This document shows positions 3,954 to 55,591 of a DNA stretch of 64,000 nt, piece by piece. Where the stretch lies: contig BOLA01000001.1 of the NCBI GenBank assembly GCA_016861265.1, positions 203,569 to 267,568 of the forward strand, given 5' to 3'. This DNA is from Patescibacteria group bacterium (GTDB taxonomy: Bacteria > Patescibacteriota > Dojkabacteria > J137). Position 1 is the stretch's first letter; each line of letters begins with the position of its first letter. Below the pieces are notes generated by a model, which saw nothing but the letters and a program-made list of their open reading frames with translations, was not told the origin of the DNA and made no database searches. Both the position numbers and the translations under genes were made by a program.

Positions 3954-5068
3954 TGATTGAAGCAGGAACGAATCTCTGCTTCGCTGGGTAGGTCGTAGAA
4001 GTTGTATGTTAGTACCCCTTGATTTATTGCCCTATCCCGCTGATTCTCCATTCGATCATAAAATCCTACAGCCCACCAGAATGGACCATTGAACCCAAAA
4101 CTTTCGCCAAATTCCTGCATAAATTGACAGGTACCGGCGTAGTAACGAGTCTGTGCTGAGAAATCACGTCTTCCTCCATTGTTACCATTCCATGGTGTAA
4201 TGAAGGAACCAACCCGAGGAGTCACACCTACCTCCGCAAACATTATCGGCATATTGAGCCGATCGTGGTAACTGCGGAGATATGGTAACCACTCTTGCCA
4301 TGCATAGTAAATGTCCGTTGATGTGGCATCGTTGCCAATGCCATGTAGATCAAAGAACGCATCCACCATTAACACGTCAAGAGAAGGTGCAAACCCCGGT
4401 AACTCAGAAACTGGCGTCCAGTTCTTCGCGTATGTTACATTCCCGGAATACACTGCACGAACGCTCGCAATTAGCTGATTCCATCTATCGGTGTACCTTT
4501 GCTGGTCCTTATCAAGAGATTCCATCTCTGCACCGATAATTAACCCTAGCGCGCGTTCTTCTTCCGCTATCGCTGCATATTTAAGGATTAGGGCTCCGTA
4601 ATTGGCGAACCATTCGTCCAGTGCAGCATCGTTAAAATCACCACCCGGTACAATTGCACCTCGCCACGTCCCGGTTCTTTCGTCGTCTATGAGAGGCTTA
4701 AGCCAGACATAGTATCCTCTTGACCTTCCCTCCCGAAGAAAGATACGAATGTTTTCCTCGGATGGTGTAAGCAGAGGATCTTCATACAGAACCGTTGTTG
4801 TGGCTCCGTCTTGAAAGATCGGGAATGTAAAGATAATTGAGTTTACCCCCAATTCCCTACTATCAAGATCATCGAAAAACGCGACTGTATTGCCCTGCAT
4901 GGTAGTATCGTTCCCATACAGAACAACCGATATCCCTTTTTGATAGGGGATTTGCGTCCCGATTGGAATTGGATTGTACTCTTCTGTTGGAGGGCCTTCT
5001 TGGGCATTCACTGGCAATGGAGCCAGTGCGATCACCAGTAGAATTAGAATACTGAGAATCCTAAGCAT
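3950..5068 (-). CDS. secreted protein, putative glycoside hydrolase / polysaccharide-processing enzyme (TIM-barrel-like)
   Basis: cleavable signal peptide MLRILSILILLVIALAPLPVNAQE; aromatic- and acidic-rich; last gene of an operon with the GT2 synthase. The hydrolase call comes from context and composition only. Confidence 0.4.
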   Translation of the reverse strand: MLRILSILILLVIALAPLPVNAQEGPPTEEYNPIPIGTQIPYQKGISVVLYGNDTTMQGNTVAFFDDLDSRELGVNSIIFTFPIFQDGATTTVLYEDPLLTPSEENIRIFLREGRSRGYYVWLKPLIDDERTGTWRGAIVPGGDFNDAALDEWFANYGALILKYAAIAEEERALGLIIGAEMESLDKDQQRYTDRWNQLIASVRAVYSGNVTYAKNWTPVSELPGFAPSLDVLMVDAFFDLHGIGNDATSTDIYYAWQEWLPYLRSYHDRLNMPIMFAEVGVTPRVGSFITPWNGNNGGRRDFSAQTRYYAGTCQFMQEFGESFGFNGPFWWAVGFYDRMENQRDRAINQGVLTYNFYDLPSEAEIRSCFNQ

Positions 5069-5089
5069 TTGACCTCCAGAGGAGGGGTT

Positions 5090-6517: not shown

Positions 6518-6532
6518 GTTGTCTGCCTTGTC

Positions 6533-8233: not shown

Positions 8234-8273
8234 TTTCAGAACCTCCTCAGGTCTGTTTTATGATTTTCTTATG

Positions 8274-8286
8274 TAGTTCATTCAGT
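8274..8286. repeat. right 13-bp inverted repeat (GTAGTTCATTCAG) at the island boundary, about 40 nt upstream of the operon start
   Basis: exact reverse complement of 3941-3953. Confidence 0.7.
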
Positions 8287-8464
8287 TGTAAACGAACCTG
8301 TGATGAACAAGATTCATTCACATTAGCGCTGATTTTACCATAAAACAGGTGTACATTGCTATATAAAAGCTATATAGGATAATTAAAGTACCCCTCCTAT
8401 TTTCTACTTGAAATTACAATACTAAAAGTTAGATAATCACGAGCTTACCCTTTTAAAAACTTTT

Positions 8465-20800: not shown

Positions 20801-21804
20801 GCTGAGTTATCAAGTTTACCCGAAATACCCACAAGTTTAGCTACAAATTTAAATCCTCCAATCTTAATGGCAAATTCAATCAAGATTTTCCTATCACTTT
20901 CTGCAGTGGAATCATCTATAATTAAACTTCTCAATTTTGTCTCGAATATATTCTTGTAATGATCAATGTCTAAAGTTTTACCAATTACGGTGTATATTGT
21001 TTCTGCATTTGGTGAGCTTTCAATTCTGGAAATAAATACTATTAGCGTTGATAGCGGAAGACTATCAAGAATTGCCTCTCTTAAGGCGTCAACAATAAAC
21101 TCTGCTAGCCTTCTAGCTTCGATATTCGAAGTTATAATTTCCTTAAAGATTATGGAATATACACCTTCTATAACTGCACTATTTGAATCATCTACAGTTC
21201 TTAGCGTTCTAATAATATTGTGTAAATTATCTGCTCTTAGGCAACTATCTACAATTATCCTTGGCAATGCTGCAGATATTGCGTTTTTAGTGTCAGGATT
21301 AGTACCTAGTTGACTATCAACATTGTTAACCAGAGTTCCTAATATCTTGGTGTTATTACCACGAACAGTTTTTACCTGAAATTGCACAAAGATATCTGTT
21401 AGTACACTTACAAAAGTTGATTCGAAGTTCGGATTAGTTAATAGGACCTGGCAAAGCGGAGTTATTAGATTTGTATTGATAAAATCTGCAAGTTCTTCAC
21501 CTGGATAATCCAGATCAGCCATAAAAGCCGAAAGATTCTTTAATTTGTCTAATGCAGCTTGAACCTTATCAGGATCGCCTGAGCTTAATTCTTCCACAAT
21601 AATACTAAGATACTTTACTGCCGTTTCGTAGTTCTCTGCTTCACTCGGTTCAATAGGTTCATTTGGTTCTAAAGCAGCTTCAGGTTCATCTGCGCCAAAG
21701 CCTACAGGTAAAGCCATTGGCTCTGTCTTTACCGCCTGAATGGTCGGCTGACTTTCATCGGTTGTTTCTTCTGGATCTGGAGTAAAATTTTCTAGTGCGG
21801 CCAT
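17866..21804 (-). CDS. giant (1312 aa) acidic, largely alpha-helical protein of unknown function
   Basis: uninterrupted ORF at host-like composition, in an operon between sufB and the 161-aa ORF. Confidence 0.7.
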   Translation of the reverse strand: MAALENFTPDPEETTDESQPTIQAVKTEPMALPVGFGADEPEAALEPNEPIEPSEAENYETAVKYLSIIVEELSSGDPDKVQAALDKLKNLSAFMADLDYPGEELADFINTNLITPLCQVLLTNPNFESTFVSVLTDIFVQFQVKTVRGNNTKILGTLVNNVDSQLGTNPDTKNAISAALPRIIVDSCLRADNLHNIIRTLRTVDDSNSAVIEGVYSIIFKEIITSNIEARRLAEFIVDALREAILDSLPLSTLIVFISRIESSPNAETIYTVIGKTLDIDHYKNIFETKLRSLIIDDSTAESDRKILIEFAIKIGGFKFVAKLVGISGKLDNSAQLIKIFVYIEPYIEGVLDSGNQEDISALVEYMGQVSLRIDFVQTEWVDIQVNILNYIDRLKQTDNVVISEVLTDVLLKSITSRIIAGLQSTLATSQNEDTQKAIRRIVRLVVPVGAFAPLSIFDKDDRVAVYKLFIERYLTDPKDSYLFNLMHYLYSGEVKGVNLEDLTADGYEFQKDKDAKIELVAELVEALKLSEEQKKAIIDKFFENHSANDTLVITLLLRETAMLEYYREKAYQIDLVKKLGTQEIESELEEIKELVLDRLRPEGKAERMKQKVNNLKKNIYYRILFAFDSEPTKAQKRREKARESVESEDKRSIEKGVRKLADIIKDPIAVKLLIKAVETDPEAYATVANLIEELYQFVDELDVSRGTERSIYDFLRLSLDSVELVTLMPPHVRVIKLEMWKDRLDQLEDISENYGASKKEILTEDGIEVRLDALKAREQRWYESRLAKKFKALSTPRGECLTEIVTLYSTNRPLFDIYSSQPEFENIVEYAIDQYSMYPDKFLQISDAEKDFILFIIDNKSIWNSVSNRVKFKLCTQVLTLWSKQDPAGYEILIDLATETDDSVDYSFANADVLNFIGATFQQLPAEQRDQLIRFAGVNEKKGRARKMFEGLRDTVTRNNTNDYANNLNYIMAYLATRNRVNAKGFYDVVDTVVAEKATVEQQVKIENAAHQAYEDIKDEAGEVDPTGALLTNDRVAELDTKLKKSIDASIVFIDAFNMNPPLTFRVQTEVLDMIPRFIDLLVHGVERGYDEIDLKKVLDFMQKLLETEPPYFRPSRTYIEILEEIDSRVTSYSQLTGNAKFDAFNKDIKAIRDLCEKKSIEAAGLIVLGAFEKLKSPFAVSNKDQKVATSISVNLLKSSQIREAIKPVIEILFSNFEIIEKLIKNGSEEDQDRLVLALSRVLMYVNLYVNPSISKQLTFFITKLGSALPKEKRAEIVSMHKFNQENVRGLSPRRRVLPITLQEEINKLAA

Positions 21805-28977: not shown

Positions 28978-29442
28978 ACGGGGCCCACTCCAAAGAATCG
29001 CGTTTGGGTCTTAAGGCAACTTAAAAACCCAAATGAGGAAAGTCTGGACTCCATTGCGGTCTCGACTGGCAGTTCTGCTGCCGAGTTCAAGCTGTAAAAA
29101 GCTTTAATTTCGAGATAGACACCCTTAACTAAAAAGTAATTAAAAGGCCATGGTTTAAGAAGTAATTCAAGGGTTTTGGCCCGCTAAGCTTTATAGGTAT
29201 GGGCTGGGAGCAATCTTAGGGAGAAAAGGGCAACAGAGAACAAACAACCGACAGCTAGTTTAGTAATATGTACGTGATATTACTAATGCTAACTGAAGGT
29301 AAAGGTGAAAAGGTGGGGTAAGAGCCCACCGACTTTAGTAGTAATACTAAGGTGCAGGCAACCCCTGTCTGGAGCAACCAAATATTTGGGCAATAGATAA
29401 ATGATTCTTTAAACAGAATCCGGCTTATGGATGGACCCCCGT
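28978..29442 (+). ncRNA. rnpB: RNase P RNA (bacterial type A-like)
   Basis: universal motifs GAGGAAAGTCTGGACTCC (P4 5' strand), GGTGAAAAGGTGGGGTAAGAGCCCACC (P10-P12) and ACAGAATCCGGCTTAT (P4 3' strand) in the correct order; the ends are approximate. Confidence 0.85.
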
Positions 29443-29443
29443 T

Positions 29444-30088
29444 TTATAGACTCCAAAACCTTGTCAATCGCCAAGGAATTTCTAAAGGATAGGTTAATAC
29501 TTCGTATTTTATCTCATTCGCTAAAGTTTCGGCTCTGGCCAATTCAACTAAATCAAGTTTCAACAGTGGCTTAGCCTCAATTAATACTTGATTGAGTATT
29601 TTGTTATATGCCCAAATCCCATATATAACTAGGAATATATTAAGCATTAATACTAAATACCCTGCAGCAAGAATAACTGTTTGTATTGTGGGGAAAACAA
29701 AGAAGAGTATTAAACATAAAATCTGTGACAAGAATACAATAGACTGGTAGCTATAAATATTTCTAACTTCTTTTAATTTAGGATTGGTAAGTTTTAATTG
29801 AAATAATAACACTAGGTTACTGTACAGATCTTTTGCGTAAATTGATTTTTTACTGATAATTATTAGGTTATTCTCAGCAATACAAACATCATTAATTTCA
29901 TCGGAAGCTAAGATGTTTAAATTTGAATGCTTTTGCTGATACGCTTCAAGTATCTTATTAAACTCAATCTGCTCGCCTAGATAATAGCTATATTTCCTCC
30001 TTAAGCTTCTTTTCACACTGGAAGCGAAAATACCCATAAGGATTTGGGTAATTACTAAAAAAACGAATATAGCAAGAAACAGATACAT
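29444..30088 (-). CDS. hypothetical integral membrane protein
   Basis: 214 aa with several TM helices; convergent with rnpB. Confidence 0.5.
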   Translation of the reverse strand: MYLFLAIFVFLVITQILMGIFASSVKRSLRRKYSYYLGEQIEFNKILEAYQQKHSNLNILASDEINDVCIAENNLIIISKKSIYAKDLYSNLVLLFQLKLTNPKLKEVRNIYSYQSIVFLSQILCLILFFVFPTIQTVILAAGYLVLMLNIFLVIYGIWAYNKILNQVLIEAKPLLKLDLVELARAETLANEIKYEVLTYPLEIPWRLTRFWSL

Positions 30089-30128: not shown

Positions 30129-30581
30129 TTAAAGAGAAGCGTATTTATCAACAACTTTTTCTATCTCATTTATGTTTACTTCAGAATTGCCTATTACCTT
30201 TCCGTCTTGAACAAAAAGAACTACAGGTGCATACGAAGTAGACATGCTGTTAGCTAATTCACGATTAACTTCGATATCAGTTTCAATGAATTTAATATCT
30301 GAATATTTTTGTGCCGATAATTTGTATAAATTGGACATTGTCTGACAAGGTCCACACCAGCTTGAAGTAAAGAAGATGAAGTTTTTTCCAGATTCAATTT
30401 TATCTGCGATTTTACCTTCAAGTTTTTCGTAATTTGCTGGGATCTCTTTTACTACCGATGATGCAACAATATCTATTTTTAGAATTCCTGTTGCCAATGA
30501 TATTGCCACAATAAATAATCCTAACGCACTCACAATTGCAAAACTTTTTAGTGCAAACTTTCTTTTCTTTTTGGGTAACAT
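30129..30581 (-). CDS. membrane-anchored thioredoxin-family thiol-disulfide oxidoreductase
   Basis: N-terminal TM anchor; WCGPCQ active site. Confidence 0.75.
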   Translation of the reverse strand: MLPKKKRKFALKSFAIVSALGLFIVAISLATGILKIDIVASSVVKEIPANYEKLEGKIADKIESGKNFIFFTSSWCGPCQTMSNLYKLSAQKYSDIKFIETDIEVNRELANSMSTSYAPVVLFVQDGKVIGNSEVNINEIEKVVDKYASL

Positions 30582-33947: not shown

Positions 33948-34739
33948 CTACTCTATTCCAAAAATAACATTCAAATTTATCGATAACTCTAATTCTCCAG
34001 TTGATAGGCTGGTTGACTTAACACTATCAAATGATGCGCCTTCAGCATTATATGTAACAGGAGCCACTACACCAGTATTTACTGAGTAATCTGTAATACT
34101 AACGGGCTTAAGTAGTCTCACACCGGACAACCTGGATAATTCATCGGCCTTTTGTTTTGCTTTATTGTAGGCAAGTTCCCTCGCTTGATTGTATGCTTCT
34201 TCTTTGTTCTCGAGATCAAAACTAATAGATCCCATCTGAACTTTTTCAACAACAGAAACTTCGTCTATAATTTTTGTGGCCTTGGACGCCTTCTCATCTA
34301 ACCCCTTAATTTTTACAGTAACACCAATACTTGCTCTCTGACCTTTTATTTTACTACCTCCATTTACTGAATAGTCGTACTCAGGATAAATATTAAACTG
34401 TGATGTTTGAATATCTTTATCTTCTATACTATTTGCTCTAAGTATCCCTAGAACTTGGTTCATACGTTCGTTGACTTGTTGCAGAGCGATTGCAGAAGTA
34501 TCTGCAATTTCACTTACTGCGAATGTAATGGTTGCCATATCCGGAGTAACACTTACTCGCCCATCACCTGCAACTGTTATTGTATTTACTATTGCGCCAT
34601 TCTGTTCAACCGAAGTCCCCATATTACGGATATAAATAGGAGTGTTTAACAGTATTACTGCTAAAGCTACTACAGTTAAAACTGCAGCAAAAATTCCAAA
34701 GACAGCTATCAACTGACTTTTGGTTAACGACTGATTCAT
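33948..34739 (-). CDS. SIMPL / DUF541-family periplasmic protein (26-kDa immunogenic protein-like)
   Basis: ITVAGDGRVSVTPDMATITFAVSE near the N-terminus after a TM anchor. Confidence 0.75.
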   Translation of the reverse strand: MNQSLTKSQLIAVFGIFAAVLTVVALAVILLNTPIYIRNMGTSVEQNGAIVNTITVAGDGRVSVTPDMATITFAVSEIADTSAIALQQVNERMNQVLGILRANSIEDKDIQTSQFNIYPEYDYSVNGGSKIKGQRASIGVTVKIKGLDEKASKATKIIDEVSVVEKVQMGSISFDLENKEEAYNQARELAYNKAKQKADELSRLSGVRLLKPVSITDYSVNTGVVAPVTYNAEGASFDSVKSTSLSTGELELSINLNVIFGIE

Positions 34740-35505: not shown

Positions 35506-36183
35506 TTAGTTTGAAGACACAGTCTGAAGTTCGTAGCTGCCTGGATTTATTATTCCAAATTTATTCAAAGGCCAGAGTCGGAAAATTACCTTACCTTGCA
35601 ACCACTCACGCTTTATAAAACCAATGTATCTGGAATCATTGCTTACTGCTCTATTATCCCCCATTACAAAGAATACATCTTGGTCTATTATTTTGTACCC
35701 ATTTACATCGGTCTCTTCCATTTGAACCTTATATTCTTGTCCTTCTTTTAAATTACCTGACTTTGTAAAAGTATTGTCTGGCAAATAATCTTCTACAAGA
35801 AGTTGCCCGTTAACGTATATTCTACCCTTTTCAATTTTAATTGTATCTCCTGGTAATCCGATTATTCTTTTTATCAAGGAACTACCCATGGTAGGCTTAA
35901 AGAAGACAATAACATCTCCTCTGTTATAGCCTAGGCCAAGTGACTTACCAATATCTGATTTGCTGAACCATTGCGGTAATCTATTTGTATACACTCTTTC
36001 GGTATTGTAAAACGTTGGCTCCATTGATGGTCCGTCTACCTCGCTAGGGGTTACAATGCTAAAAATTATAAATGAAAAAATAATAGCCAAAGTAACTGAT
36101 TGCAAGAAATCAATTAAGGCAGATTTTTCCTTTTTTTCACTGAATTCAGATTCAGCCTTATTTCCTTTGAATGGATTCTTCAT
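35506..36183 (-). CDS. lepB: signal peptidase I (paralog 2)
   Basis: S26 motifs DGPSMEPTF (catalytic Ser box), RIIGLPGD and GDNRAVSNDSRY. Confidence 0.85.
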   Translation of the reverse strand: MKNPFKGNKAESEFSEKKEKSALIDFLQSVTLAIIFSFIIFSIVTPSEVDGPSMEPTFYNTERVYTNRLPQWFSKSDIGKSLGLGYNRGDVIVFFKPTMGSSLIKRIIGLPGDTIKIEKGRIYVNGQLLVEDYLPDNTFTKSGNLKEGQEYKVQMEETDVNGYKIIDQDVFFVMGDNRAVSNDSRYIGFIKREWLQGKVIFRLWPLNKFGIINPGSYELQTVSSN

Positions 36184-36800
36184 TATTGATTATAGTTTAT
36201 TGTACCTGTCGGAATTAATCCGAATGTATCGAGTGGAAAGACTCTCAAGAAGACTTTACCCTTTAACCAGTCATTTCTAATAAAACCTAGGTATCTGGAA
36301 TCGTAACTCACAGGTCTATTGTCCCCCATCACAAAAACCGCACCTGGTGGGACTATCTGTGCTTCTCCTCCATCTTCTAAAAAATCACCTCCTTTAGTAT
36401 ACAATGCTGGAGGTAAATAGTCTTCAGAAATTAGTTGATCATTTAAGTAGACCTGACCGTCTCGGATTGCGATTTTATCTCCTGGCAAGGCAACTATTCT
36501 TTTAATAAATGCCGGGTAGTTTGGGATTTGCAGAACTACAACATCGCCTCTGTGGTATTCAAATCCGGTTGTTTTACCTATAGGAGTACCATTAAGCCAT
36601 TGAACCACTCTATTTGCGAAGTAAATTTGCTTAGTATAAAAATTAGGTTCCATCGATGGACCATCGACCTCGTTTGGGGAAATCACGAATAGATATAGAA
36701 TTATCCCAATCGATGTAAGTATTACCAATGATTGTAGTATTATAATAAACCAATTTTTTGGCTTTGGAGCAGGTTTTTCAAAGAAAGGATTTCCTTCCAT
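36183..36800 (-). CDS. lepB: signal peptidase I (paralog 1)
   Basis: DGPSMEPNF, RIVALPGD, GDNRPVSYDSRY; directly upstream of the second paralog. Confidence 0.85.
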   Translation of the reverse strand: MEGNPFFEKPAPKPKNWFIIILQSLVILTSIGIILYLFVISPNEVDGPSMEPNFYTKQIYFANRVVQWLNGTPIGKTTGFEYHRGDVVVLQIPNYPAFIKRIVALPGDKIAIRDGQVYLNDQLISEDYLPPALYTKGGDFLEDGGEAQIVPPGAVFVMGDNRPVSYDSRYLGFIRNDWLKGKVFLRVFPLDTFGLIPTGTINYNQ

Positions 36801-36900
36801 TTAATAGTAGTTAAAAGTGCTAATCTACTAACAATATCATAAAGATTTTTACAATTCTACACAACATTACTGGACTTGTGTGAATTTAAAGTAAACATAA

Positions 36901-36920
36901 AGGCACCCTTCGGGTGCCTT
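36901..36920 (-). terminator. hairpin terminator downstream of the FKBP gene
   Basis: AGGCACCC-TTCG-GGGTGCCT stem-loop 19 nt past the stop. Confidence 0.6.
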
Positions 36921-36938
36921 TAAAAATTTAAAGAAATC

Positions 36939-37394
36939 TTAGTTCTTGAATTCTAGTAATTCGATTTCAAAGTATAAATCTGAATTTGCTGGAATTGAAC
37001 CATAATCTTGTGAGCCATATCCTAATGTTGGAGGTACAGAAAGCTTTCTAACCTCTCCTACCTTCATACCTAATACGCCTTGACTCCAACCTTCAATCAC
37101 TCCCTGACCAACTGTAAATTCAAATGGGGTTCCTCTATCTCTAGAGCTGTCAAATTTAGAGCCATCTGCAAATGTACCCACATAATGTACACTAATCTTA
37201 TCACCTGTCTGAACCTGTCTATCCCCTGTACCCTGAGTTACTGTTTCTGACTTTAGTTCACTTAGATTAGATGTGGATGTAGTTGTTGTATCGTTTTGAA
37301 TTCTTGAATTTTCCACTGGTTTTCCTGTAAAAAATAATATACCAACTAAAAATACTATTACTATTAATGCTGCGACAATTGATTTATTTTCCAT
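36939..37394 (-). CDS. FKBP-type peptidyl-prolyl cis-trans isomerase, membrane-anchored
   Basis: [63 protein letters not shown] core. Confidence 0.85.
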
Positions 37395-49365: not shown

Positions 49366-49532
49366 TTTTTATAATTTTAAACAGATAATTTTAGCAATAA
49401 ATCGAGTTTTAGCCCAATTTATATAAATACTACATGAGTAATAAGTTCTGCAACCCTTTATAGATCTATTTAGGGCTCTTTGACACGTCTTATAATTTCT
49501 GCAATACTGTGAAGAGTTTAAACTAATAATAA

Positions 49533-50699
49533 ATGACTAAGAATAGAAAACTGCTAATAGCAATTCTTATTATTGCCACTATAGTATTGGCTGGAATAAG
49601 CATAGTAATTAGTACGGCAATTAATAATAATAACCTTCAAAGCCAGACTGGAGCACAGACCAATCCAATTCTTGCCAACTGCAATAGCTCTACCAATACT
49701 TGTACCATACCATCGGGAGTATGTAACCCATCTAAGGTTTATGTCCACTTTTGCAGTGAACTGAAAAAAGATAACGAAAAGTGTGTGTCTACTAATCCAA
49801 TCGAAATACCAGTGAGTCCAGTGGCCTCCGGAAGTGCAGTAAATTTAAATGACTACCTTGGTAACGTAACTTGTGGAACAGTACAAATGTATCTTGAGCT
49901 TGAGAATTCAGGAGTAAACTCACTAGGGGCATGCGGCACAACTGTAAAGAAGTTTTCAGCAGCTTGCGGAGCTGGAACAAATACACCTGTATCGTTCCCA
50001 GCTTCATTTCCAAATGGAACAAACAACACTGGTACTAACACAGGAACAAATACTAATACCGGAAATAATACAAATAATAATGGGACCACCCAATTGGCTG
50101 ACCCTCAATTTAGAATTACAAATTCATATGCTGCGACCTGCGAAGCTTCTGGGGACGCTCTGTTAAAATATACAATCAGTATTAGTAATATTAGTACAGT
50201 TAGCGGAACAATTACTAAAGTGGAAGAAGTCATTGATACAAGTTTAATTTCTAATGGAATCATTCCAACTAATGTAAGTAATAACGGAACGACTGCAAGC
50301 AATAAAATTACATGGGCAGAAACTTCAGCAGAAAGAACGTATAATGCTAACCAAACAAAGACACTAAACTACGAAATTCGAATTCCTAAAGCCAAATTAG
50401 CAACATTTCAAAATGGAACAAGTTCAAACGCCACTGTAACATACAATACAAGCAACACCACTGGCAATACAAATACATTCGCATTACTTTCAAAACATTC
50501 ATGCGTAATTCAGACAACAAATACAAATACACCTAGTCAAAACACTAATACACTGCCTAATACTGCACTTGTCGATGATTTTAAGCTATTACTAATTGGT
50601 GCAGCGTTCATATTAGTTGCAATTCTGATTTTTAGATTTCAAATTGGAGAGGATATGGTAGCAAATTTACTAGGAAGCAAATATAGAAGAAAAAATTAA
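49533..50699 (+). CDS. surface protein, paralog A: signal anchor, Cys-containing N-domain, Asn/Thr-rich repeat-like region, C-terminal LPNTA motif plus TM plus basic tail
   Basis: N-terminal KLLIAILIIATIVLAGISIV; C-terminal LPNTALVDDFKLLLIGAAFILVAILIFRFQ...RRKN. Confidence 0.6.
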   Translation: MTKNRKLLIAILIIATIVLAGISIVISTAINNNNLQSQTGAQTNPILANCNSSTNTCTIPSGVCNPSKVYVHFCSELKKDNEKCVSTNPIEIPVSPVASGSAVNLNDYLGNVTCGTVQMYLELENSGVNSLGACGTTVKKFSAACGAGTNTPVSFPASFPNGTNNTGTNTGTNTNTGNNTNNNGTTQLADPQFRITNSYAATCEASGDALLKYTISISNISTVSGTITKVEEVIDTSLISNGIIPTNVSNNGTTASNKITWAETSAERTYNANQTKTLNYEIRIPKAKLATFQNGTSSNATVTYNTSNTTGNTNTFALLSKHSCVIQTTNTNTPSQNTNTLPNTALVDDFKLLLIGAAFILVAILIFRFQIGEDMVANLLGSKYRRKN

Positions 50700-50756
50700 T
50701 ACTTCAAATTGACATACCTTATAAATTTTGAAATACTGACTTAAATTAACTTTACA

Positions 50757-53090
50757 GTGGACCAACCTATGTCGAACAGAAAAAAGATTACCTTAGCAAT
50801 ATTGATTTTTCTTACTGCGATTCTCGCAGGTGTAAGTATTTATGTAACTGTAAAGTTACAAGAAAGCCAGGCTCCCACCGAAACAGGAGCATTTACTGGT
50901 GCTGGATTTACTAATTGTTGCGGTACCGGAATTGGTTGTTCGGGTGGAGGTTCTACCTGTCCTGCACATAAATGTAGCGGAACAAGTTGTAGTGGTTCGG
51001 CTGTAAAAATGTTTAAGTGTACTGGAAGACATAATGAATGTGGAGGTGGAGGTGCTACACCATTCTGGGAAAACAATGGATTCACAGGTGGAGAATCTGT
51101 TCCTACTGGAGAATGCGGAATTACTGTACAAATCGATGTGTTTAATAGTGCATCATACGGTAGCGGTATGATTGACTACATTGTTTACTACACTGGGGAT
51201 TGTAATCAAACTACTCCAAAATATAAATGTAGCAATAACTCTTGCGTAAGAGACGATGCAAATGGAACATATACAAGTTCAAATTGTAATAATCAATGTA
51301 GTGCACCTAAGAAAGTTGCATGCGGAGAAAGATGCAATACGGATGCAGATTGTAAAGGAGCTGCAAATGGAGGAACAACAGTTTGTAGAGATGAAGGTGG
51401 TGGTGTAAAAAAATGTGCAAATGTATTCTGCCCTGTGGGAAAAACAATACCTGGAGCAAACTGTGATTGTTCGGCAGGAAGAGTCTGCGGACAAACATGC
51501 AATGCTAGCGTAGGTTTATGTGCAGATGGAAAATCGACTTGTAGATACATAGTTGGTCCATCATGTACAACCTCAAGACCTAATGTTGCAGATACTACCT
51601 ATTGCGTACCGACATCTGGAGCTGGTGCCAGCCAATTAACTACTGCAAAATGTGTAGACAGAGATCAATACAATAGTTATGTGCTATTAAATGGACAAAA
51701 TCCAACACCTGCACAAATTCAACAATTATGTAATTTAACAATACAAACTACTTGCTATAAATGTACTGACCCTACAAATGATGGAAATACTTGTACTAGT
51801 CAAACAGTAAGCGGAACATCTTGTCCTACAGGATGGACTACAAATTCAGTTTGTTCGGCAGCTGCTCCTGGCGGTGCATGTCCTGTCGAAATACCAAAGA
51901 TTACATGTTATCGATGTACAACTGGAACATTAGATGGTAATGCCTGTGAAAATCAGCAATTTGATGGAACATCTTGCCCAACAGGCTGGACTAATAACTC
52001 AAATTGCGGTGCTGCAGCTACAGGTGGCGCATGTCCTGTCGAGACTCCTACAGTAAGTGCTGCTGCTGCTTGTGTTAGTAATACTAATCAAGTAACAGTT
52101 ACATGGAATGCTGTAACTGGTGACAATAGTCAATATGTAGTAGATATTAGTGATTCAAACACATTTGCAACAAATTTTTATCATAAAGCAGTAACATCTG
52201 GTACAACTACAACAGCACCTAATGGATTTACTGCTGCTACTGGCGGTACTGGAGCTCCATTAACAACACTTGACCCTGCAAAGACTTACTATGTAAGAGT
52301 TGCTTATACTGCAATAAATAATTTATATAGTAATACAGCTACAGTATCTACATTAACTTGTACTGAACCCACAATTCAATGTTATAGATGTACAGTAGGT
52401 GCAACAGATGCAAATGCCTGTGAAAATCAACAATTCAACGGAACATCTTGCCCAACGGGTTGGACTTCGAATTCAAACTGTGCTGCTGCAGCCACGGGAG
52501 GTGCTTGCCCTGTAGAAGTAGCTTGCGGTGCAACTTGTAACGATACAAATAATTTATGTCCTCAAGGTCATACTTGTAATGCAGGAGTGTGTAAGCTTAA
52601 CACTTGCTTAACACCAGGGAATTGTTCCGATAATACATGTACGCCAACTGTCCCTGTTTGCGGATCAACATGTTCAACAAATGCCCAGTGTCCAAATAAT
52701 CATAGTTGTACTGCGGGTAAGTGTGTACTAAACGGATGCACAAGTTCTACATGTACAAATGGTTGTGTACCGTTATGTGGCGGTCCATGCGGAACAAACA
52801 ATGATTGTCCAAATAATCATAGTTGTACTGCCGGTAAATGTGTACTAAACGGATGTACAGCAACAACTTGTACAAATGGTTGTAGTGTAATTCCAGTAAT
52901 TCCTGAGACTGCAATTGAAGATGACGCTAGATTATTACTAATAGGAGCTCTATTTATAATCGGAGGTTACCTATCAATGAAATTTGGATTAGGAAGTAAA
53001 ACTAATTTCTTAACAAATATGTATAGTAGTATGACATCTAGCTATGAAGATAAGGCTGAAAGAAAATTGAAAGAAAAAGCTGAGAAGTAA
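50757..53090 (+). CDS. large Cys-rich modular surface protein, paralog B: 3x 46-aa six-Cys repeat, FN3-like insert, 2x 26-aa Cys repeat, C-terminal IPETA motif plus TM plus basic tail
   Basis: N-terminal anchor nearly identical to paralog A; nucleotide-level direct repeats inside the gene; C-terminal IPETAIEDDARLLLIGALFIIGGYLSMKFG. Confidence 0.7.
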   Translation: MDQPMSNRKKITLAILIFLTAILAGVSIYVTVKLQESQAPTETGAFTGAGFTNCCGTGIGCSGGGSTCPAHKCSGTSCSGSAVKMFKCTGRHNECGGGGATPFWENNGFTGGESVPTGECGITVQIDVFNSASYGSGMIDYIVYYTGDCNQTTPKYKCSNNSCVRDDANGTYTSSNCNNQCSAPKKVACGERCNTDADCKGAANGGTTVCRDEGGGVKKCANVFCPVGKTIPGANCDCSAGRVCGQTCNASVGLCADGKSTCRYIVGPSCTTSRPNVADTTYCVPTSGAGASQLTTAKCVDRDQYNSYVLLNGQNPTPAQIQQLCNLTIQTTCYKCTDPTNDGNTCTSQTVSGTSCPTGWTTNSVCSAAAPGGACPVEIPKITCYRCTTGTLDGNACENQQFDGTSCPTGWTNNSNCGAAATGGACPVETPTVSAAAACVSNTNQVTVTWNAVTGDNSQYVVDISDSNTFATNFYHKAVTSGTTTTAPNGFTAATGGTGAPLTTLDPAKTYYVRVAYTAINNLYSNTATVSTLTCTEPTIQCYRCTVGATDANACENQQFNGTSCPTGWTSNSNCAAAATGGACPVEVACGATCNDTNNLCPQGHTCNAGVCKLNTCLTPGNCSDNTCTPTVPVCGSTCSTNAQCPNNHSCTAGKCVLNGCTSSTCTNGCVPLCGGPCGTNNDCPNNHSCTAGKCVLNGCTATTCTNGCSVIPVIPETAIEDDARLLLIGALFIIGGYLSMKFGLGSKTNFLTNMYSSMTSSYEDKAERKLKEKAEK
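51753..52518 (+). repeat. three copies of a 138-nt (46-aa) intragenic module, C[YK][KR]CT..G..D.NACENQQF.GTSCPTGWT.NS.C.AAA.GGACPVE
   Basis: copies at about 51753-51890, 51906-52043 and 52381-52518, roughly 80-85% nucleotide identity by eye. Confidence 0.75.
52689..52883 (+). repeat. two copies of a 78-nt (26-aa) module, CPNNHSCTAGKCVLNGCT..TCTNGC
   Basis: 52689-52766 and 52806-52883, near-identical. Confidence 0.75.
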
Positions 53091-53094
53091 AACT

Positions 53095-53119
53095 AAACCC
53101 TCCGAAAGGAGGGTTTTTT
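53095..53119. terminator. strong bidirectional rho-independent terminator
   Basis: AAA-CCCTCC-GAAA-GGAGGG-TTTTTT; the same stem as the 33927 terminator in the opposite orientation. Confidence 0.9.
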
Positions 53120-53593: not shown

Positions 53594-55591
53594 CTAATAT
53601 TTTATCACGGGTTTACCAAATAAATTTATCTTACTTAACTTCTTTTTTAATGACTTGTGAATTGCCTTCCTAGCCCTAATGACTTCTGTAATTAGTACAA
53701 TCAAAATAACTAAATAACCAAGTAATATTAGATAAGTTCTCGATTCATCAGTTGGGTACTGCTTAGGCAATAACGAACTGTCCTTTTGAGGGAATGAAGT
53801 CGGATAACTTACTGCCATGAATTCCGAAAGCACGTTTGGAAAGTAATATTCATTGGCAATGACTCTGAATGCGCCTCTATAATAGTCAACTACCCCTATT
53901 ATATTTAGTATTGTGCCCTTTTTAAGCTCTATTAAATTTGCTGGACCATAAAAATAAACACTAAAAGTGTCATTGCTTAACCTCACCCTTACTCTATTCG
54001 AATAAACCTGATCTACTACTGCAGAAATGGCTACAAGTTTACCGATATCACTTGTCTCGGGATTAAACAAATTTAAAGCTACTGGTGCAGGGTCTATATA
54101 ATCGATTATCTCAATATTAGCAGGATTAATTTCAATATTTTTAGCACCATTTTTAGTTACAACTTTAGCCTTAATTAGCGAGAATGTATTTAATAAATCT
54201 CGATCGAGCATTGTAGTTAATTTTGCTTTTATTCTCATGGTGTTATCTTCAAGGAATGCATATTTATCGACTGAACCAATTATATTTGCCTTGAGCATAA
54301 ATTCAGTTCCTCCCTGTAAGGAATTAATATCCAAAATAGTATAGAACGGAAATTCAAGATTGTTCTTTGAATTTACAAAACGATTTTCTCCCTTTGGAGT
54401 CGGAGACATTAAAATAAAAGTTTCTTCTGAAAATACTCCATTCTCAAATTTCCTACCAACGGATTGAGACGTACTAACTTGTGTATAAGAGAATTTATTG
54501 ATCTGATTACCGTTTATATCAAATAAATAAATCGAATCTCCGGAATTATTTAAGCTTATTGTAAGATCCTCTTCGTAAACTACATAGTACTCCCTTGGAG
54601 CGATTGTTACATCGGGCAGAAGCGATTTCCGATTAGTTACACCAGTGGATGTTTTTTCTTCTATTACATAATCTTTTAGATTAATAGAATGAGAATCATT
54701 ATTATAAATTTCAATCCACTCGTCGTCTCCACTTTCAGGACTCGGGTAAACTTCAGTAATAACAACTTTATTTGTAATATTGTTTTGAATATTTATCCTC
54801 ATACTTTCAGAATTTATTGTTTGGTCATCGTATTTTAATTCTAATTTAACTGAATCTGAGTAGACTGTATTAAACTTATGAGGTGAACTAATTGGATTAT
54901 TATTCTTATCTGTCCATTTTTCGGATATAGGAGATTGAGTTATGGTAGGAATAAATCTAAAGTAGATATCCTTACCTATGAATGATGATAATGTATCGGT
55001 CCATACCACTGAGTCTAGTGAAAATTCGATTCTCGGAGGATTTATTGGGATAACTGTATAAGAAATAGGAATATTAAAACAGGTGCTTATACTAACTGAA
55101 TTGTATAGCCCAACCGTGTTGTAAATGGAGCTCAATAAGTTTCCACACAAAGGTCCATCTAATTCCCAAGCCACACCCTCTTTTGAATCTCCATAGCTTA
55201 ATTCATAAACTAATACTCCATTGTTAAATAACTGTAATTTTCCATAATCATTGAAAAGAGCAAGTTTTCCATTCCCAATAGAAATACCATTACTTATTTG
55301 TAGGGTAGTCAAGTCTTCTGCTATAACAAAATACGAATTGGGATTTATTTGGCTATCTGGAATAATAATTTTCTTACTGCTACCACTCTGAGAAGTATTT
55401 ATAAAATAGGCATTAACTAATTGAGCTGCCGAACTGCTTGTATTATAAATTTCAATGTATTCTTTTCCCGTGTCAGTACCTACTGCATCTGGCAACAATT
55501 CATTAATAATTAGATTAGTGTCAGCACTTAAATGTATAGAAAAAAGATAAGGGATTAAAATAAAAATAGAAAAAAGAAAGGTAGCCTTCAT
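53594..55591 (-). CDS. secreted protein with two lamin-tail domains (LTD) and a C-terminal TM anchor
   Basis: signal peptide; LIINELLPDAVGTDTGKEYIEIYN and VVITEVYPSPESGDDEWIEIYNN LTD signatures; C-terminal YPTDESRTYLILLGYLVILIVLI followed by a basic tail. Confidence 0.65.
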   Translation of the reverse strand: MKATFLFSIFILIPYLFSIHLSADTNLIINELLPDAVGTDTGKEYIEIYNTSSSAAQLVNAYFINTSQSGSSKKIIIPDSQINPNSYFVIAEDLTTLQISNGISIGNGKLALFNDYGKLQLFNNGVLVYELSYGDSKEGVAWELDGPLCGNLLSSIYNTVGLYNSVSISTCFNIPISYTVIPINPPRIEFSLDSVVWTDTLSSFIGKDIYFRFIPTITQSPISEKWTDKNNNPISSPHKFNTVYSDSVKLELKYDDQTINSESMRINIQNNITNKVVITEVYPSPESGDDEWIEIYNNDSHSINLKDYVIEEKTSTGVTNRKSLLPDVTIAPREYYVVYEEDLTISLNNSGDSIYLFDINGNQINKFSYTQVSTSQSVGRKFENGVFSEETFILMSPTPKGENRFVNSKNNLEFPFYTILDINSLQGGTEFMLKANIIGSVDKYAFLEDNTMRIKAKLTTMLDRDLLNTFSLIKAKVVTKNGAKNIEINPANIEIIDYIDPAPVALNLFNPETSDIGKLVAISAVVDQVYSNRVRVRLSNDTFSVYFYGPANLIELKKGTILNIIGVVDYYRGAFRVIANEYYFPNVLSEFMAVSYPTSFPQKDSSLLPKQYPTDESRTYLILLGYLVILIVLITEVIRARKAIHKSLKKKLSKINLFGKPVIKY

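What the first reader, a model, noticed from the sequence alone, without database searches (positions are those of the whole stretch)
50757..53090. Extremely cysteine-rich modular extracellular protein built from novel six-Cys repeats
The 777-aa protein has a Cys- and Gly-rich N-terminal region (CCGTGIGCSGGGSTCPAHKCSGTSCSG...). It carries three copies of a 46-aa module with six conserved Cys (C.RCT..G..D.NACENQQF.GTSCPTGWT.NS.C.AAA.GGACPVE) that are also clearly repeated at the nucleotide level. An FN3-like beta-sandwich segment (SQYVVDISDS...KTYYVRVAYT) sits between modules 2 and 3, and two near-identical 26-aa modules (CPNNHSCTAGKCVLNGCT..TCTNGC) come before the anchor. I do not recognise this as any standard adhesin repeat such as EGF, DUF11 or cadherin. 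A disulfide-stabilised repeat ectodomain on a minimal bacterium suggests a host- or partner-recognition protein. The repeats could also drive recombination-based variation.
Basis: seen in the sequence. Interest (0 to 1): 0.7.

Follow-up and report, generated by a model that had tools for sequence, protein, structure and literature searches.

The report
Cysteine-rich modular surface protein, Dojkabacteria
This gene encodes a real, strongly conserved cell-surface protein of an ultra-small (CPR/Dojkabacteria-type) bacterium, built from disulfide-rich modules; one of them, a 48-residue six-cysteine unit, belongs to no described domain family, but the protein as a whole fits the already known class of cysteine-rich surface proteins of these bacteria.

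Summary
ORF 50757-53090 is real, though the true start is probably ATG 50769 (773 aa). It has 74 Cys (9.5%), against 0-2.8% in every other ORF of the window.

It contains three copies of a 48-aa six-Cys module and an FN3 domain. The C-terminus carries IPETA, a membrane helix and a charged tail.

Best reading: a Sec-exported, disulfide-bonded protein with a sortase-type anchor, in which a rigid stalk presents an N-terminal head. Partner contact is inferred, not shown, and no sortase gene was found in the sequence available.

The idea of repeat-driven variation is not supported. Module copies keep positional orthology, their synonymous sites are scrambled, copy number is stable among strains, and dN/dS is 0.02.

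This is a new domain family inside a known kind of protein; interest is moderate.

The parts
50709..50737 (+). Promoter-like element TTGACA-N17-(TG)AATACT upstream of the gene
   Evidence: 10 of 12 matches with a TG extension. The same element, with conserved spacer bases, sits upstream of the neighbouring surface-protein gene at 49480-49508. This is a consensus match only; function is not shown.
50769..53090 (+). Coding sequence of the Cys-rich surface protein (773 aa from ATG 50769; the mechanical ORF starts at GTG 50757)
50769..50876 (+). N-terminal export signal or signal-anchor: MSNRKK, a 22-aa hydrophobic segment, then RLQESQAP
   Evidence: Read from the sequence. It is 87% identical among orthologs. 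The QxQAP motif co-occurs with the C-terminal LPxTA signal in other Dojkabacteria proteins. Cleavage has not been tested.
50892..51212 (+). Head domain 1: a Cys/Gly-rich stretch followed by a beta domain (CGITVQIDVF...DYIVYYTGDC)
   Evidence: Found only in orthologs and paralogs P0001-P0011. AlphaFold pLDDT is about 80-88 for residues 65-145. No Pfam hit.
51213..51314 (+). 34-aa four-Cys mini-module (YKCSNNSCVRDDANGTYTSSNCNNQC)
   Evidence: Absent from orthologs P0006 and P0009, and present in tandem in the unrelated protein P0021. No Pfam hit.
51315..51740 (+). 'domX': a ~140-aa Cys-rich domain shared with differently built proteins
   Evidence: It is 55-72% identical to P0012-P0015. It is also present in P0016-22, P0045, 46, 48, 52, 57 and 70, often directly upstream of six-Cys modules. 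Its profile has no Pfam or PDB match.
51747..51890 (+). Six-Cys module, copy 1 (TTCYKCTDPTNDGNTCTSQTVSGTSCPTGWTTNSVCSAAAPGGACPVE)
51900..52043 (+). Six-Cys module, copy 2 (ITCYRCTTGTLDGNACENQQFDGTSCPTGWTNNSNCGAAATGGACPVE)
   Evidence: AlphaFold model pLDDT 88.4, with a beta-hairpin plus a short helix. No PDB neighbour.
52053..52364 (+). FN3-type beta-sandwich domain
   Evidence: Pfam fn3 E 4e-5, 24.1 bits against a cut-off of 25. pLDDT 84-89. The Foldseek top hits are all FN3 domains. It is the least conserved region: 47% mean identity and dN/dS 0.19-0.31.
52374..52517 (+). Six-Cys module, copy 3 (IQCYRCTVGATDANACENQQFNGTSCPTGWTSNSNCAAAATGGACPVE)
52524..52640 (+). Eight-Cys unit 1 (CGATCNDTNNLCPQGHTCNAGVCKLNTCLTPGNCSDNTC)
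52659..52766 (+). Eight-Cys unit 2 (CGSTCSTNAQCPNNHSCTAGKCVLNGCTSSTCTNGC)
   Evidence: Sub-threshold hits to EB, DPY and DUF7107.
52776..52883 (+). Eight-Cys unit 3 (CGGPCGTNNDCPNNHSCTAGKCVLNGCTATTCTNGC)
52899..52913 (+). IPETA: an LPXTG-like (LPxTA-type) sorting pentapeptide, followed by IEDD
   Evidence: The pattern [LI]PxT[AGS][IL]xDD is conserved in 38 proteins that carry these modules. LPNTA is the motif cleaved by the class D sortase SrtC of B. anthracis (PMC3208642). Cleavage here has not been tested.
52926..52979 (+). C-terminal hydrophobic (membrane-spanning) segment ARLLLIGALFIIGGYLSM
   Evidence: predicted helix
52980..53087 (+). 36-aa charged tail with the distal motif SYEDKAERKLKEKAEK ([FY]ExK)
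   Evidence: The distal [FY]ExK motif is seen in most of the 32 aligned C-termini (my count from the printed alignment: about 24). The tail is much longer than that of classical LPXTG signals.
53095..53116 (.). Bidirectional terminator-like hairpin just after the stop codon
   Evidence: 9-bp stem, 5 GC pairs, T runs on both strands
49533..50699 (+). Upstream neighbour: a 388-aa surface protein with the same kind of N-terminal signal and an LPNTA-LVDD + TM + basic-tail C-terminus
   Evidence: Synteny is conserved in the orthologous loci.

Best explanation
**What it is.** The gene encodes an exported, disulfide-cross-linked, modular cell-surface protein of a Dojkabacteria-like CPR bacterium.

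**Proposed mechanism**
- The N-terminal hydrophobic signal takes the chain through Sec (inferred).
- The 74 cysteines form about 37 disulfides outside the cytoplasm (inferred). This probably needs a membrane-bound thiol-disulfide oxidoreductase of the kind enriched in CPR genomes.
- The C-terminal IPETA + hydrophobic + charged signal retains the protein at the membrane. Most likely a sortase-type transpeptidase then links it to the wall (inferred from the motif; no sortase gene was seen).
- The C-terminal half acts as a rigid, protease-resistant stalk (inferred). It comprises three 48-aa six-Cys modules, one FN3 domain and three eight-Cys hairpin units.
- The stalk holds out the N-terminal head (head domain 1, the four-Cys mini-module and domX), which is the candidate contact surface for a partner cell or ligand (inferred).

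**Repeats.** They are old, stable structural modules and not a variation device (shown).

**Six-Cys module.** It is a lineage-restricted domain family that has not been described (shown, within the limits of the databases searched).
For: **Export and surface topology**
- The N-terminus is RKK plus a 22-aa hydrophobic segment. The C-terminus is IPETA-IEDD plus an 18-aa hydrophobic segment and a Lys/Arg/Glu-rich tail.
- The same paired N- and C-terminal signals occur in 38 module-carrying proteins and in the adjacent gene.
- LPNTA, the neighbour's motif, is a proven class D sortase substrate motif (PMC3208642).
- Sortases occur in more than half of CPR genomes, and MdbA-like oxidoreductases are enriched there (PMC6744442).

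**Disulfides**
- Cys is 9.5% here against at most 2.8% in all other ORFs of the window.
- The Cys count is even in all 11 orthologs and paralogs, and in 40 of 51 Cys-rich carriers.
- 143 of 146 module copies have exactly six Cys. The two four-Cys copies have both lost Cys1 and Cys4 together.
- An exported, membrane-anchored thioredoxin-fold protein (WCGPC) lies at 30129-30581.

**Modular stalk**
- The module is predicted with pLDDT 88 as a hairpin plus helix.
- FN3 is supported by fold.
- Each eight-Cys unit is modelled with a beta-hairpin and resembles DPY/EB hairpin modules.

**Head versus stalk**
- Mean ortholog identity is 0.80-0.83 for the eight-Cys units and 0.71-0.75 for the six-Cys modules. 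It is 0.55-0.60 for the head parts and 0.47 for FN3.
- domX and the mini-module are shuffled among different architectures.

**Stability and constraint**.

**Rarity and novelty of the module**.
Against: - No sortase, DsbA or VKOR gene lies in the 64-kb window, nor in about 230 kb of related loci. Anchoring and oxidation partners are therefore unproven.
- The Pfam Gram_pos_anchor and NCBIfam LPXTG models do not hit this protein.
- The C-terminal tail is long (36 aa) and conserved, with a distal [FY]ExK motif. That is atypical for sortase signals and hints at another fate for the C-terminus.
- The very low dN/dS (0.02) is unusual for an adhesin facing a changing partner. It fits a structural envelope component equally well.
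- The head domains have no recognisable binding fold.
- No expression or localisation data exist.
Confidence: 0.6

Rival explanations
1. The protein is not cleaved by a sortase. It stays as a membrane protein held by its C-terminal helix, and perhaps also by the uncleaved N-terminal helix. The conserved cytoplasmic tail ([FY]ExK motif) would then be recognised by a lineage-specific sorting, retention or signalling partner. The [LI]PxTA-DD motif would be part of a distinct sorting domain specific to Dojkabacteria.
For: - The tail after the membrane helix is 10-55 aa long and carries a conserved distal [FY]ExK[hydrophobic]xK motif in most of the 32 aligned C-termini (about 24 by my count of the printed alignment).
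- Classical LPXTG tails are short and not conserved (established knowledge).
- The N-terminal helix is unusually conserved (87% identity). It is followed by QxQAP, with Pro after the Ala, which would disfavour signal peptidase I cleavage at that bond (established rule; inference).
- The LPXTG models do not hit.
- No sortase was found in the sequence available.
Against: - The pentapeptide, acidic residues, hydrophobic segment and basic residue immediately after the helix are exactly the layout of sortase signals.
- LPNTA is a proven sortase motif.
- Sortases are common in CPR.
- Only 64 kb of this genome was available.
- A [ST]xA site a few residues after QAP (TGA|F here, SSA|A in relatives) could still be a signal peptidase site.
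Confidence: 0.2
2. It is a structural envelope component, such as a wall-spanning strut or part of a surface layer. On this reading it is not a partner-recognition adhesin, and its conservation reflects architecture.
For: - dN/dS is 0.024, lower than the flanking genes at 0.06.
- The synteny with housekeeping genes (RecO, PheT, YgjP) is conserved across orthologs that share only 57-85% identity.
- It has its own strong promoter-like element, shared with the adjacent surface-protein gene.
- There is one copy per genome locus.
Against: - The head parts and FN3 diverge faster than the stalk, and whole domains are swapped or deleted between orthologs. domX is replaced in P0007 and P0008, and the mini-module is lost in P0006 and P0009. 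That is more typical of interaction proteins.
- There are no S-layer-type domains or self-assembly features.
Confidence: 0.15
3. The cysteines bind metal (zinc-ribbon-like or metallothionein-like modules) instead of forming disulfides.
For: - Each six-Cys module starts with a CxxC (CYRC) on a beta-hairpin.
- There are weak, scattered hits to zinc-finger families.
Against: - There is only one CxxC per module.
- The protein has export and anchor signals, so the modules sit outside the cytoplasm.
- Cys counts are even, and Cys1 and Cys4 are lost together.
- No His or Asp ligands are conserved.
- The zinc-finger hits are inconsistent: at most 5 of 144 members for any family, with E around 0.1.
Confidence: 0.03
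4. The repeats are a device for recombination-based copy-number or antigenic variation.
For: - DNA-level repeats exist.
- Over long evolutionary distances copy number ranges from 1 to 13 among carriers.
- dS is patchy along the gene between two strains, 0.07 to 0.58, which hints at inter-strain recombination.
Against: - Positional orthology of the copies is kept.
- Third-position identity is 48-58% between module copies and 64% between the eight-Cys units. The longest identical runs are 12-26 nt.
- Length and unit count are identical across independent assemblies and strains.
- dN/dS is 0.02.
- There is no DGR-like template repeat in the window.
Confidence: 0.02

Closest known systems
Large cysteine-rich extracellular proteins of CPR bacteria (Peribacteria; Anantharaman et al. 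2016, PMC4736985)
   Same: - A CPR host.
- A signal peptide and predicted extracellular location.
- Very high Cys content (7.2% there, 9.5% here).
- No functional annotation; attachment to other cells was proposed there.
- A sortase is present in those genomes.
   Different: - Those proteins are much larger (mean 1,655 aa), lie in a 14-gene cluster, and show weak similarity to Myxococcus Cys-rich repeats.
- This one is 773 aa, a single conserved locus, and built from different modules. It has no DUF4215 or Myxococcus-repeat hit.
- No sequence relationship between the two was tested directly.
LPXTG-type sortase substrates of Gram-positive bacteria, especially LPNTA/LPxTA substrates of class D sortases (B. 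anthracis BasH and BasI; PMC3208642)
   Same: - An N-terminal export signal.
- A stalk of repeated domains, including an FN3/Ig-like domain.
- A C-terminal pentapeptide [LI]PxTA followed by acidic residues, a hydrophobic segment and basic residues.
   Different: - Ile replaces Leu at position 1 in this protein.
- The tail is 36 aa long and conserved, with a distal [FY]ExK motif.
- The Pfam and NCBIfam anchor models do not hit.
- No sortase gene was seen in the available sequence.
- The stalk is stabilised by disulfides. In many Gram-positive adhesins isopeptide bonds or plain Ig folds play that part (established knowledge).
Dumpy DPY module (PF21164, PDB 1oig), nematode EB module (PF01683) and DUF7107 (PF23416)
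   Same: The eight-Cys units contain the C-x5-C-P-x4-C-x4-C hairpin core (e.g. CSTNAQCPNNHSCTAGKC versus Dumpy CVLNSDCPSNQACVNQKC). They are modelled as a beta-hairpin, and 7-15 of 25 units give weak hits to these families.
   Different: - All hits are below the curated cut-offs (best 19.8 bits against 27 for DPY; 16.7 against 24.3 for EB).
- The bacterial unit is longer, has eight Cys and starts with CGxxC.
- The known families are eukaryotic extracellular-matrix modules.
- The similarity may be convergence on a small disulfide hairpin.
Fibronectin type III domains in bacterial surface proteins and glycoside hydrolases
   Same: The segment at aa 433-536 has the FN3 fold according to the model and Foldseek, and a near-threshold Pfam score. 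It sits as a spacer between other modules.
   Different: It is highly diverged (24.1 bits against a cut-off of 25) and is bracketed by Cys439 and Cys535. It is the fastest-evolving part of the protein.
Cys-rich periodic surface coats of protists (e.g. Giardia variant surface proteins), recalled from general knowledge as an analogy only
   Same: An ectodomain with about 10% Cys in regular spacing, including CxxC. A conserved C-terminal membrane helix with a short conserved cytoplasmic motif.
   Different: There is no sequence relationship. The Giardia proteins are a large, switching gene family, whereas this is a single, strongly conserved gene with no sign of switching. Nothing about this analogy was tested here.

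Membership tests
Fibronectin type III (PF00041) | Sequence score at or above the Pfam gathering cut-off (25 bits) | tested here: inconclusive
   18.6 bits in the whole protein and 24.1 bits, E 4e-5, for the isolated segment. Both are just under the cut-off.
Fibronectin type III (PF00041) | A seven-stranded beta-sandwich of about 90-100 aa that superposes on solved FN3 domains | tested here: met
   AlphaFold pLDDT is 84-89 with seven strands over residues 429-526. The top 50 Foldseek PDB hits are dominated by FN3 domains and monobodies, with TM 0.55-0.65 on target length and probability about 1.0. E-values are only 2e-3 to 4e-2, because the query was the whole 773-aa model.
LPXTG-type sortase substrate | N-terminal export signal | tested here: met
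   MSNRKK plus a 22-aa hydrophobic segment. No signal-peptide predictor was available, so cleavage is not established.
LPXTG-type sortase substrate | An LPXTG-like pentapeptide 30-65 aa from the C-terminus, followed by a hydrophobic segment and a positively charged tail | tested here: met
   IPETA lies 63 aa from the end, followed by IEDD, an 18-aa hydrophobic segment and K/R residues. The variant motif [LI]PxT[AGS] is conserved in 38 related proteins. The tail is atypically long.
LPXTG-type sortase substrate | Recognition by the curated anchor models (Pfam Gram_pos_anchor PF00746; NCBIfam LPXTG models) | tested here: not met
   This protein has no hit at E<=1. The neighbouring gene gives only E 0.087 (Pfam) and 0.016 (NF053819), both far below the cut-offs.
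LPXTG-type sortase substrate | A sortase encoded in the same genome | not testable with these tools
   None was found in the 64-kb window: all ORFs of at least 120 aa were scanned. None was found in loci L001-L012 by motif or phmmer search or in the precomputed Pfam annotation. The rest of the genome is not available. In the literature, sortases occur in more than half of CPR genomes.
Dumpy DPY (PF21164) / EB module (PF01683) / DUF7107 (PF23416) | Score at or above the curated cut-off | tested here: not met
   The best scores are DPY 19.8 bits against 27, DUF7107 16.8 against 24.6, and EB 16.7 against 24.3. The hits are consistent but sub-threshold in 7-15 of 25 units.
EGF, DUF11, cadherin, Myxococcus Cys-rich repeat / DUF4215 | Any profile match to the six-Cys module or to the protein | tested here: not met
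   There is no such hit at E<=1 for the protein or at E<=10 for the isolated parts. Among 144 module copies only single, scattered EGF-type hits appear (1 of 144 each).
CPR cysteine-rich extracellular proteins (descriptive class, PMC4736985) | Encoded by a CPR genome; export signal; Cys content several-fold above the proteome; no known function | tested here: met
   The closest genomes are Dojkabacteria or 'Saccharibacteria' MAGs. Cys is 9.5% against 0-2.8% elsewhere in the window. There is an export signal and no annotation.
Zinc-ribbon / metal-binding Cys modules | Two CxxC (or CxxH) knuckles per module | tested here: not met
   There is one CxxC per six-Cys module and none in the eight-Cys units apart from CGxxC.
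Diversity-generating retroelement target | A nearby template repeat with adenine-specific mismatches and a reverse transcriptase | tested here: not met
   No repeat links the gene to any other place in the window. No reverse transcriptase is among the ORFs scanned.

The most novel reading that the evidence does not exclude
The 48-aa six-Cys module would be a truly new small disulfide fold confined to Dojkabacteria. It would travel together with a lineage-specific two-ended sorting system: an N-terminal helix plus QxQAP, and a C-terminal [LI]PxTA-DD plus helix plus a long tail ending in [FY]ExK. That system would not be classical sortase anchoring, and it would define how these episymbionts build their contact surface.
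Probability: 0.2. Interest if true: 0.6.

Novelty: new variant of a known kind. Interest (0 to 1): 0.4.

Why it matters
CPR/Patescibacteria live attached to other cells, yet almost nothing is known about the proteins that form their contact surface.

- **A defined domain family.** The work defines a clean, confidently modelled and extremely rare domain. It occurs in 59 cluster representatives out of 1.84 billion proteins. Together with two companion Cys-rich modules and a recurrent pair of N- and C-terminal sorting signals, it marks a set of Dojkabacteria surface proteins.
- **Candidates for experiments.** That set gives concrete candidates for cryo-ET labelling, recombinant binding studies and structural work.
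- **Possible scaffold.** The small three-disulfide module might also interest protein engineers as a scaffold.
- **A note of caution.** The strong purifying selection shows that not every repeat-rich surface protein of a symbiont is a variation device.

It does not change any general picture, because cysteine-rich surface proteins and sortases in CPR were already described.

Tried and rejected
**Dead ends**
- A profile of the C-terminal sorting region (A6) searched against 5.8 billion proteins gave one hit, which was already known.
- A profile of the eight-Cys unit (A7) in the same search gave no hit. Short profiles plus the word index make that tool unsuitable here, so the wider distribution of both features remains unknown.
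- The Foldseek afdb50 library was not available, so the module model could be compared only with the PDB.
- The window's own 773-aa protein is not on record by exact sequence. The 99%-identical P0001 was used instead.

**Searches that found nothing**
- Sortase was looked for in three ways: a TLxTC-type motif search plus phmmer with S. aureus SrtA (sequence recalled from memory) over six-frame ORFs of the window and loci L001-L010; the precomputed Pfam annotation around P0006, P0010 and P0022; and Pfam scans of every window ORF of at least 120 aa. None was found.
- For Dsb/VKOR, only one extracytoplasmic CxxC protein exists in the window, the WCGPC thioredoxin at 30129-30581. The adjacent 214-aa membrane protein is not CcdA-like.

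**Ideas rejected**
- DGR or template repeat: rejected.
- The six-Cys module and the eight-Cys unit being versions of one module: rejected (hhalign probability 11%).
- A collagen IV NC1 'CPSGWS' resemblance (E 0.2, no stretch passing) and a hydrophobin resemblance: judged chance matches.
- A metal-binding reading: rejected on parity, location and motif grounds.

**Could not be done**
- The disulfide connectivity could not be read from the model, because coordinates are not returned. Only the Cys1-Cys4 pairing is suggested, by their joint loss in two related degenerate copies.

Full report
**1. The observation**

The ORF 50757..53090 (+) is present and translates to 777 aa from a GTG. All nine full-length orthologs start at MSNRKK. 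Gene calls on three independent assemblies of a 99%-identical allele give 773 aa. The real start is therefore almost certainly ATG 50769.

A promoter-like TTGACA-N17-TGnAATACT lies at 50709-50737. A bidirectional hairpin terminator lies at 53095-53116, directly after the stop codon.

The protein has 74 Cys (9.5%), Thr 14% and Gly 11%. Every other ORF of at least 120 aa in the window has 0-2.8% Cys.

- The Cys/Gly-rich N-terminal stretch is present.
- Three six-Cys modules are present. At DNA level they are three 150-nt copies with 65-77% identity.
- An FN3-like segment lies between modules 2 and 3.
- Two near-identical short Cys modules are present (98-nt copies, 82% identity).
- A C-terminal hydrophobic anchor is present.

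Two corrections are needed. The true module is 48 aa, xTCYRCTxxxxDGNxCExxxxxGxxCPxGxxxxxxxCAxAxGGxCPxx. The '26-aa modules' are the core of a 36-39-aa eight-Cys unit that occurs three times, at aa 590-628, 635-670 and 674-709.

**2. Whose gene it is**

The window is 31-37% GC apart from one island. It carries a bacterial RNase P RNA and housekeeping genes: several aminoacyl-tRNA synthetases, SufBD, RecO, BipA and RelA/SpoT.

The protein has only 22 relatives in a 5.8-billion-protein collection, and none has a Pfam annotation. The genomes that encode them are MAGs labelled Candidatus Dojkabacteria or 'uncultured Candidatus Saccharibacteria'. The few named cluster members are all Dojkabacteria hypothetical proteins.

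The gene order is conserved in orthologous loci: RecO, PheT, a hypothetical gene, an ABC ATPase, a 388-394-aa surface protein, the Cys-rich protein, YgjP and an LTD protein. The 'minimal bacterium' context is therefore right.

**3. Anatomy**

Local iterative searches and alignments split the protein into parts. Numbering is from the GTG (777 aa).

| Residues | Part |
|---|---|
| 5-40 | Export signal or signal-anchor ending in RLQESQAP |
| 46-152 | Head domain 1: Cys/Gly-rich stretch plus a beta domain; found only in orthologs and paralogs |
| 153-186 | 34-aa four-Cys mini-module; missing in two orthologs and duplicated in an unrelated protein |
| 187-328 | 'domX', a ~140-aa Cys-rich domain. 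It is 55-72% identical to proteins of quite different build (P0012-15). In several carriers it sits directly upstream of six-Cys modules |
| 331-378, 382-429 | Six-Cys modules 1 and 2 |
| 433-536 | FN3 |
| 540-587 | Six-Cys module 3 |
| 590-709 | Three eight-Cys units |
| 715-719 | IPETA, followed by IEDD |
| 724-741 | Hydrophobic segment |
| 742-777 | Charged tail |

**4. Tests of each module against what is known**

*Six-Cys module*
- It has no Pfam hit at E<=10.
- Among 144 distinct copies scanned one by one, no family is hit by more than 5 copies, and the best E-values are around 0.1.
- It has no NCBIfam hit.
- A profile search of PDB sequences gives nothing significant. A 'CPSGWS' match to collagen IV NC1 at E 0.2 is chance.
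- A profile of 27 copies scored against every one of 1.84 billion representative proteins found 59 proteins at E<=0.001, with 1 to 13 copies each.
- 143 of 146 full copies have exactly six Cys.
- AlphaFold2 with the 144-copy alignment gives pLDDT 88.4. The model has a beta-hairpin (residues 2-6 and 16-20) and a short helix (36-39).
- A caveat applies: 48-residue domains are hard cases for both programs, and AFDB could not be searched.

*Eight-Cys unit*
- It gives consistent but sub-threshold hits to DUF7107 (15 of 25 units), EB (14 of 25), Dumpy DPY (7 of 25) and Dickkopf_N (6 of 25).
- The Dumpy structure 1oig aligns at E 0.5.
- Each unit is modelled with a hairpin.
- It is unrelated to the six-Cys module (hhalign probability 11%).

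*FN3*
- The Pfam score is just under the cut-off, but the fold is supported.

*domX*
- No Pfam or PDB match.

**5. Export, oxidation and anchoring**

The two ends look like a Gram-positive surface-protein precursor. In the 38 proteins of the collected set that have a C-terminal signal, the signal reads [LI]-P-x-T-[AGS]-[IL]-x-D-D. This is followed by a hydrophobic segment with a conserved Gly and then [YF][RK]. The adjacent gene (49533-50699) ends in LPNTA-LVDD, a hydrophobic segment and a basic tail.

LPNTA is the motif cleaved by the class D sortase SrtC of Bacillus anthracis (PMC3208642). More than half of CPR genomes encode a sortase, and an MdbA-like membrane thiol-disulfide oxidoreductase, often found next to VKOR, is enriched in CPR (PMC6744442).

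Three points argue against a simple sortase reading:
- The curated LPXTG models do not hit.
- No sortase, DsbA or VKOR lies in the window or in the related loci held.
- The tail is long and carries a conserved distal [FY]ExK motif in most of the 32 aligned C-termini, about 24 by my count of the printed alignment. That is not a feature of classical sorting signals.

The only extracytoplasmic redox candidate in the window is a membrane-anchored thioredoxin-fold protein with WCGPC at 30129-30581.

Disulfide bonding itself is supported indirectly:
- Cys counts are even in all 11 orthologs and paralogs, and in 40 of 51 Cys-rich carriers.
- The number of Cys per module is fixed.
- Cys1 and Cys4 are lost together in the two four-Cys copies.
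- The modules lie between export and anchor signals.

**6. Are the repeats a variation device?**

No, for four reasons.
- In the window protein and its four closest orthologs, module 1 is most similar to module 1 of the other genomes, and likewise for modules 2 and 3. The duplications therefore predate these species and the copies are not being homogenised.
- Between copies in this gene, third codon positions are only 48-58% identical (64% for the eight-Cys units). The longest identical runs are 12-17 nt for modules and 26 nt for the eight-Cys units.
- Eleven of the 12 members of the P0006 cluster are 738 aa (the twelfth is a partial sequence) with the same units. The three run assemblies of P0001 are all 773 aa.
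- Against P0001 the gene has dS 0.31 but dN 0.007, giving dN/dS 0.024. That is lower than the two flanking genes at 0.06.

By region, the FN3 domain is the least constrained (dN/dS 0.19-0.31). The six-Cys modules are the most constrained (0.01-0.03 against the two closest alleles).

No template-like repeat links the gene to any other place in the window. Over deep time, modules clearly are gained, lost and shuffled: carriers have 1-13 copies, and domX is replaced in P0007 and P0008.

**7. Most likely mechanism**

*Shown*
- The modular anatomy.
- The rarity of the six-Cys module and the lack of any described family for it.
- The FN3 fold.
- The conserved paired end signals.
- The strong constraint, and the stability of the repeats.

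*Inferred*
- Sec export.
- Formation of about 37 disulfides.
- Retention by the C-terminal signal and probable sortase-type attachment to the wall.
- A rigid C-terminal stalk (eight-Cys units nearest the wall, then a module, FN3 and two modules) that holds out the N-terminal head as the interaction surface.

The conservation gradient agrees with a structural stalk and a more adaptable distal part. Mean identity is 0.80-0.83 for the wall-proximal units, 0.71-0.75 for the modules, 0.55-0.60 for the head and 0.47 for FN3. It does not prove binding.

The main rivals are listed here; each is set out in full under the rival explanations.
- (a) Membrane retention through a lineage-specific sorting system that reads the long tail.
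- (b) A purely structural envelope role.
- Metal binding and repeat-driven variation are unlikely.

**8. Comparison with known systems, and novelty**

As a kind of object this is known. Large, very cysteine-rich extracellular proteins were described in CPR Peribacteria and proposed to mediate attachment (PMC4736985). Sortases and disulfide machinery are recognised CPR traits.

Three things are new here:
- A well-defined 48-aa, three-disulfide module family confined, as far as named members show, to Dojkabacteria.
- Its companion modules.
- The recurrent N-terminal QxQAP and C-terminal LPxTA...[FY]ExK pair.

Full-text searches found no paper describing any of these.

I rate it a new variant of a known kind, of moderate interest.

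Noticed in passing
window 49533-50699 (+), with 49480-49508: The upstream neighbour is a 388-aa Thr/Asn-rich protein. It has the same type of N-terminal signal and a C-terminal LPNTA-LVDD + helix + basic tail. Its promoter-like element is nearly identical to that of the Cys-rich gene (TTGACAnnnCTTATAAnTTnTGnAATACTG). The pair is syntenic in all the orthologous loci examined.
   Followed up: partly
N- and C-termini of P0001-P0011, P0018, P0031, P0037, P0039, P0044, P0065, P0067, P0069 and others; window 50769-50876 and 52899-53087: A matched pair of end signals recurs in Dojkabacteria surface proteins. The N-terminal one is basic residues, a ~22-aa helix and [RK][LI]xQxQAP[DT][DE]xxA. The C-terminal one is [LI]PxT[AGS][IL]xDD, a helix, [YF][RK] and a 10-55-aa tail ending in [FY]ExK[hydrophobic]xK. 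The long conserved tail is not typical of sortase signals. Its distribution beyond this set could not be determined.
   Followed up: partly
window 51315-51740 (aa 187-328): 'domX' is a ~140-aa domain with about 18 Cys. It is 55-72% identical to the N-terminal part of 930-960-aa proteins that are otherwise Cys-poor and differently built (P0012-15). It also occurs in about 20 other architectures, which suggests recent domain shuffling. It has no Pfam or PDB match.
   Followed up: partly
window 30129-30581 (-): A membrane-anchored thioredoxin-fold protein with a WCGPC active site is the only extracytoplasmic CxxC protein in the window. It is a candidate disulfide isomerase, reductase or oxidase for exported Cys-rich proteins. 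The adjacent 214-aa membrane protein (29444-30088) is not CcdA-like.
   Followed up: partly
window 35506-37394 (-): A secretion and folding cluster: two tandem signal peptidase I (S26) genes that share a 122-nt DNA repeat at 71% identity, followed by a membrane-anchored FKBP peptidyl-prolyl isomerase. A SIMPL/DUF541 protein lies at 33948-34739.
   Followed up: no
window ~4000-8300: A GC-rich island (46-47% GC against 31-37% elsewhere) encodes a GH113 glycoside hydrolase, a family-2 glycosyltransferase and a PMT-like (protein O-mannosyltransferase-like) membrane protein. It may have been acquired horizontally, and it could be relevant to glycosylation of Thr-rich surface proteins.
   Followed up: partly
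window 53594-55591 (-): A 665-aa protein with two lamin-tail domains (LTD, E 5e-28), an N-terminal signal and a C-terminal membrane helix. It is conserved in synteny next to YgjP and the Cys-rich gene, so it is another surface protein of the same neighbourhood.
   Followed up: partly
window 17866-21804 (-): A 1,312-aa ORF with no Pfam match at E<=1e-4. It lies directly upstream of SufBD on the same strand.
   Followed up: no
window 50769-53087 versus L013 2001-4319: Synonymous divergence from the 99%-identical allele is very uneven along the gene. dS is 0.07 in FN3, 0.17-0.22 in the mini-module, the six-Cys modules and the C-terminus, and 0.42-0.58 in domX, head domain 1 and the eight-Cys units. 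This suggests a mosaic history, that is, recombination between strains.
   Followed up: partly
L012 7739-11488: In a related genome, the P0022 protein shares the window protein's N-terminal region, including domX (BLASTP query residues 39-321). It lies just downstream of a PilN-like gene and three small ORFs, which hints at a link between domX proteins and type IV pilus genes in some lineages.
   Followed up: no
window 28980-29443 (+) and the whole window: The RNase P RNA match spans 464 nt against a 367-position model, so it probably carries insertions. No tRNA gene was found anywhere in the 64 kb.
   Followed up: no
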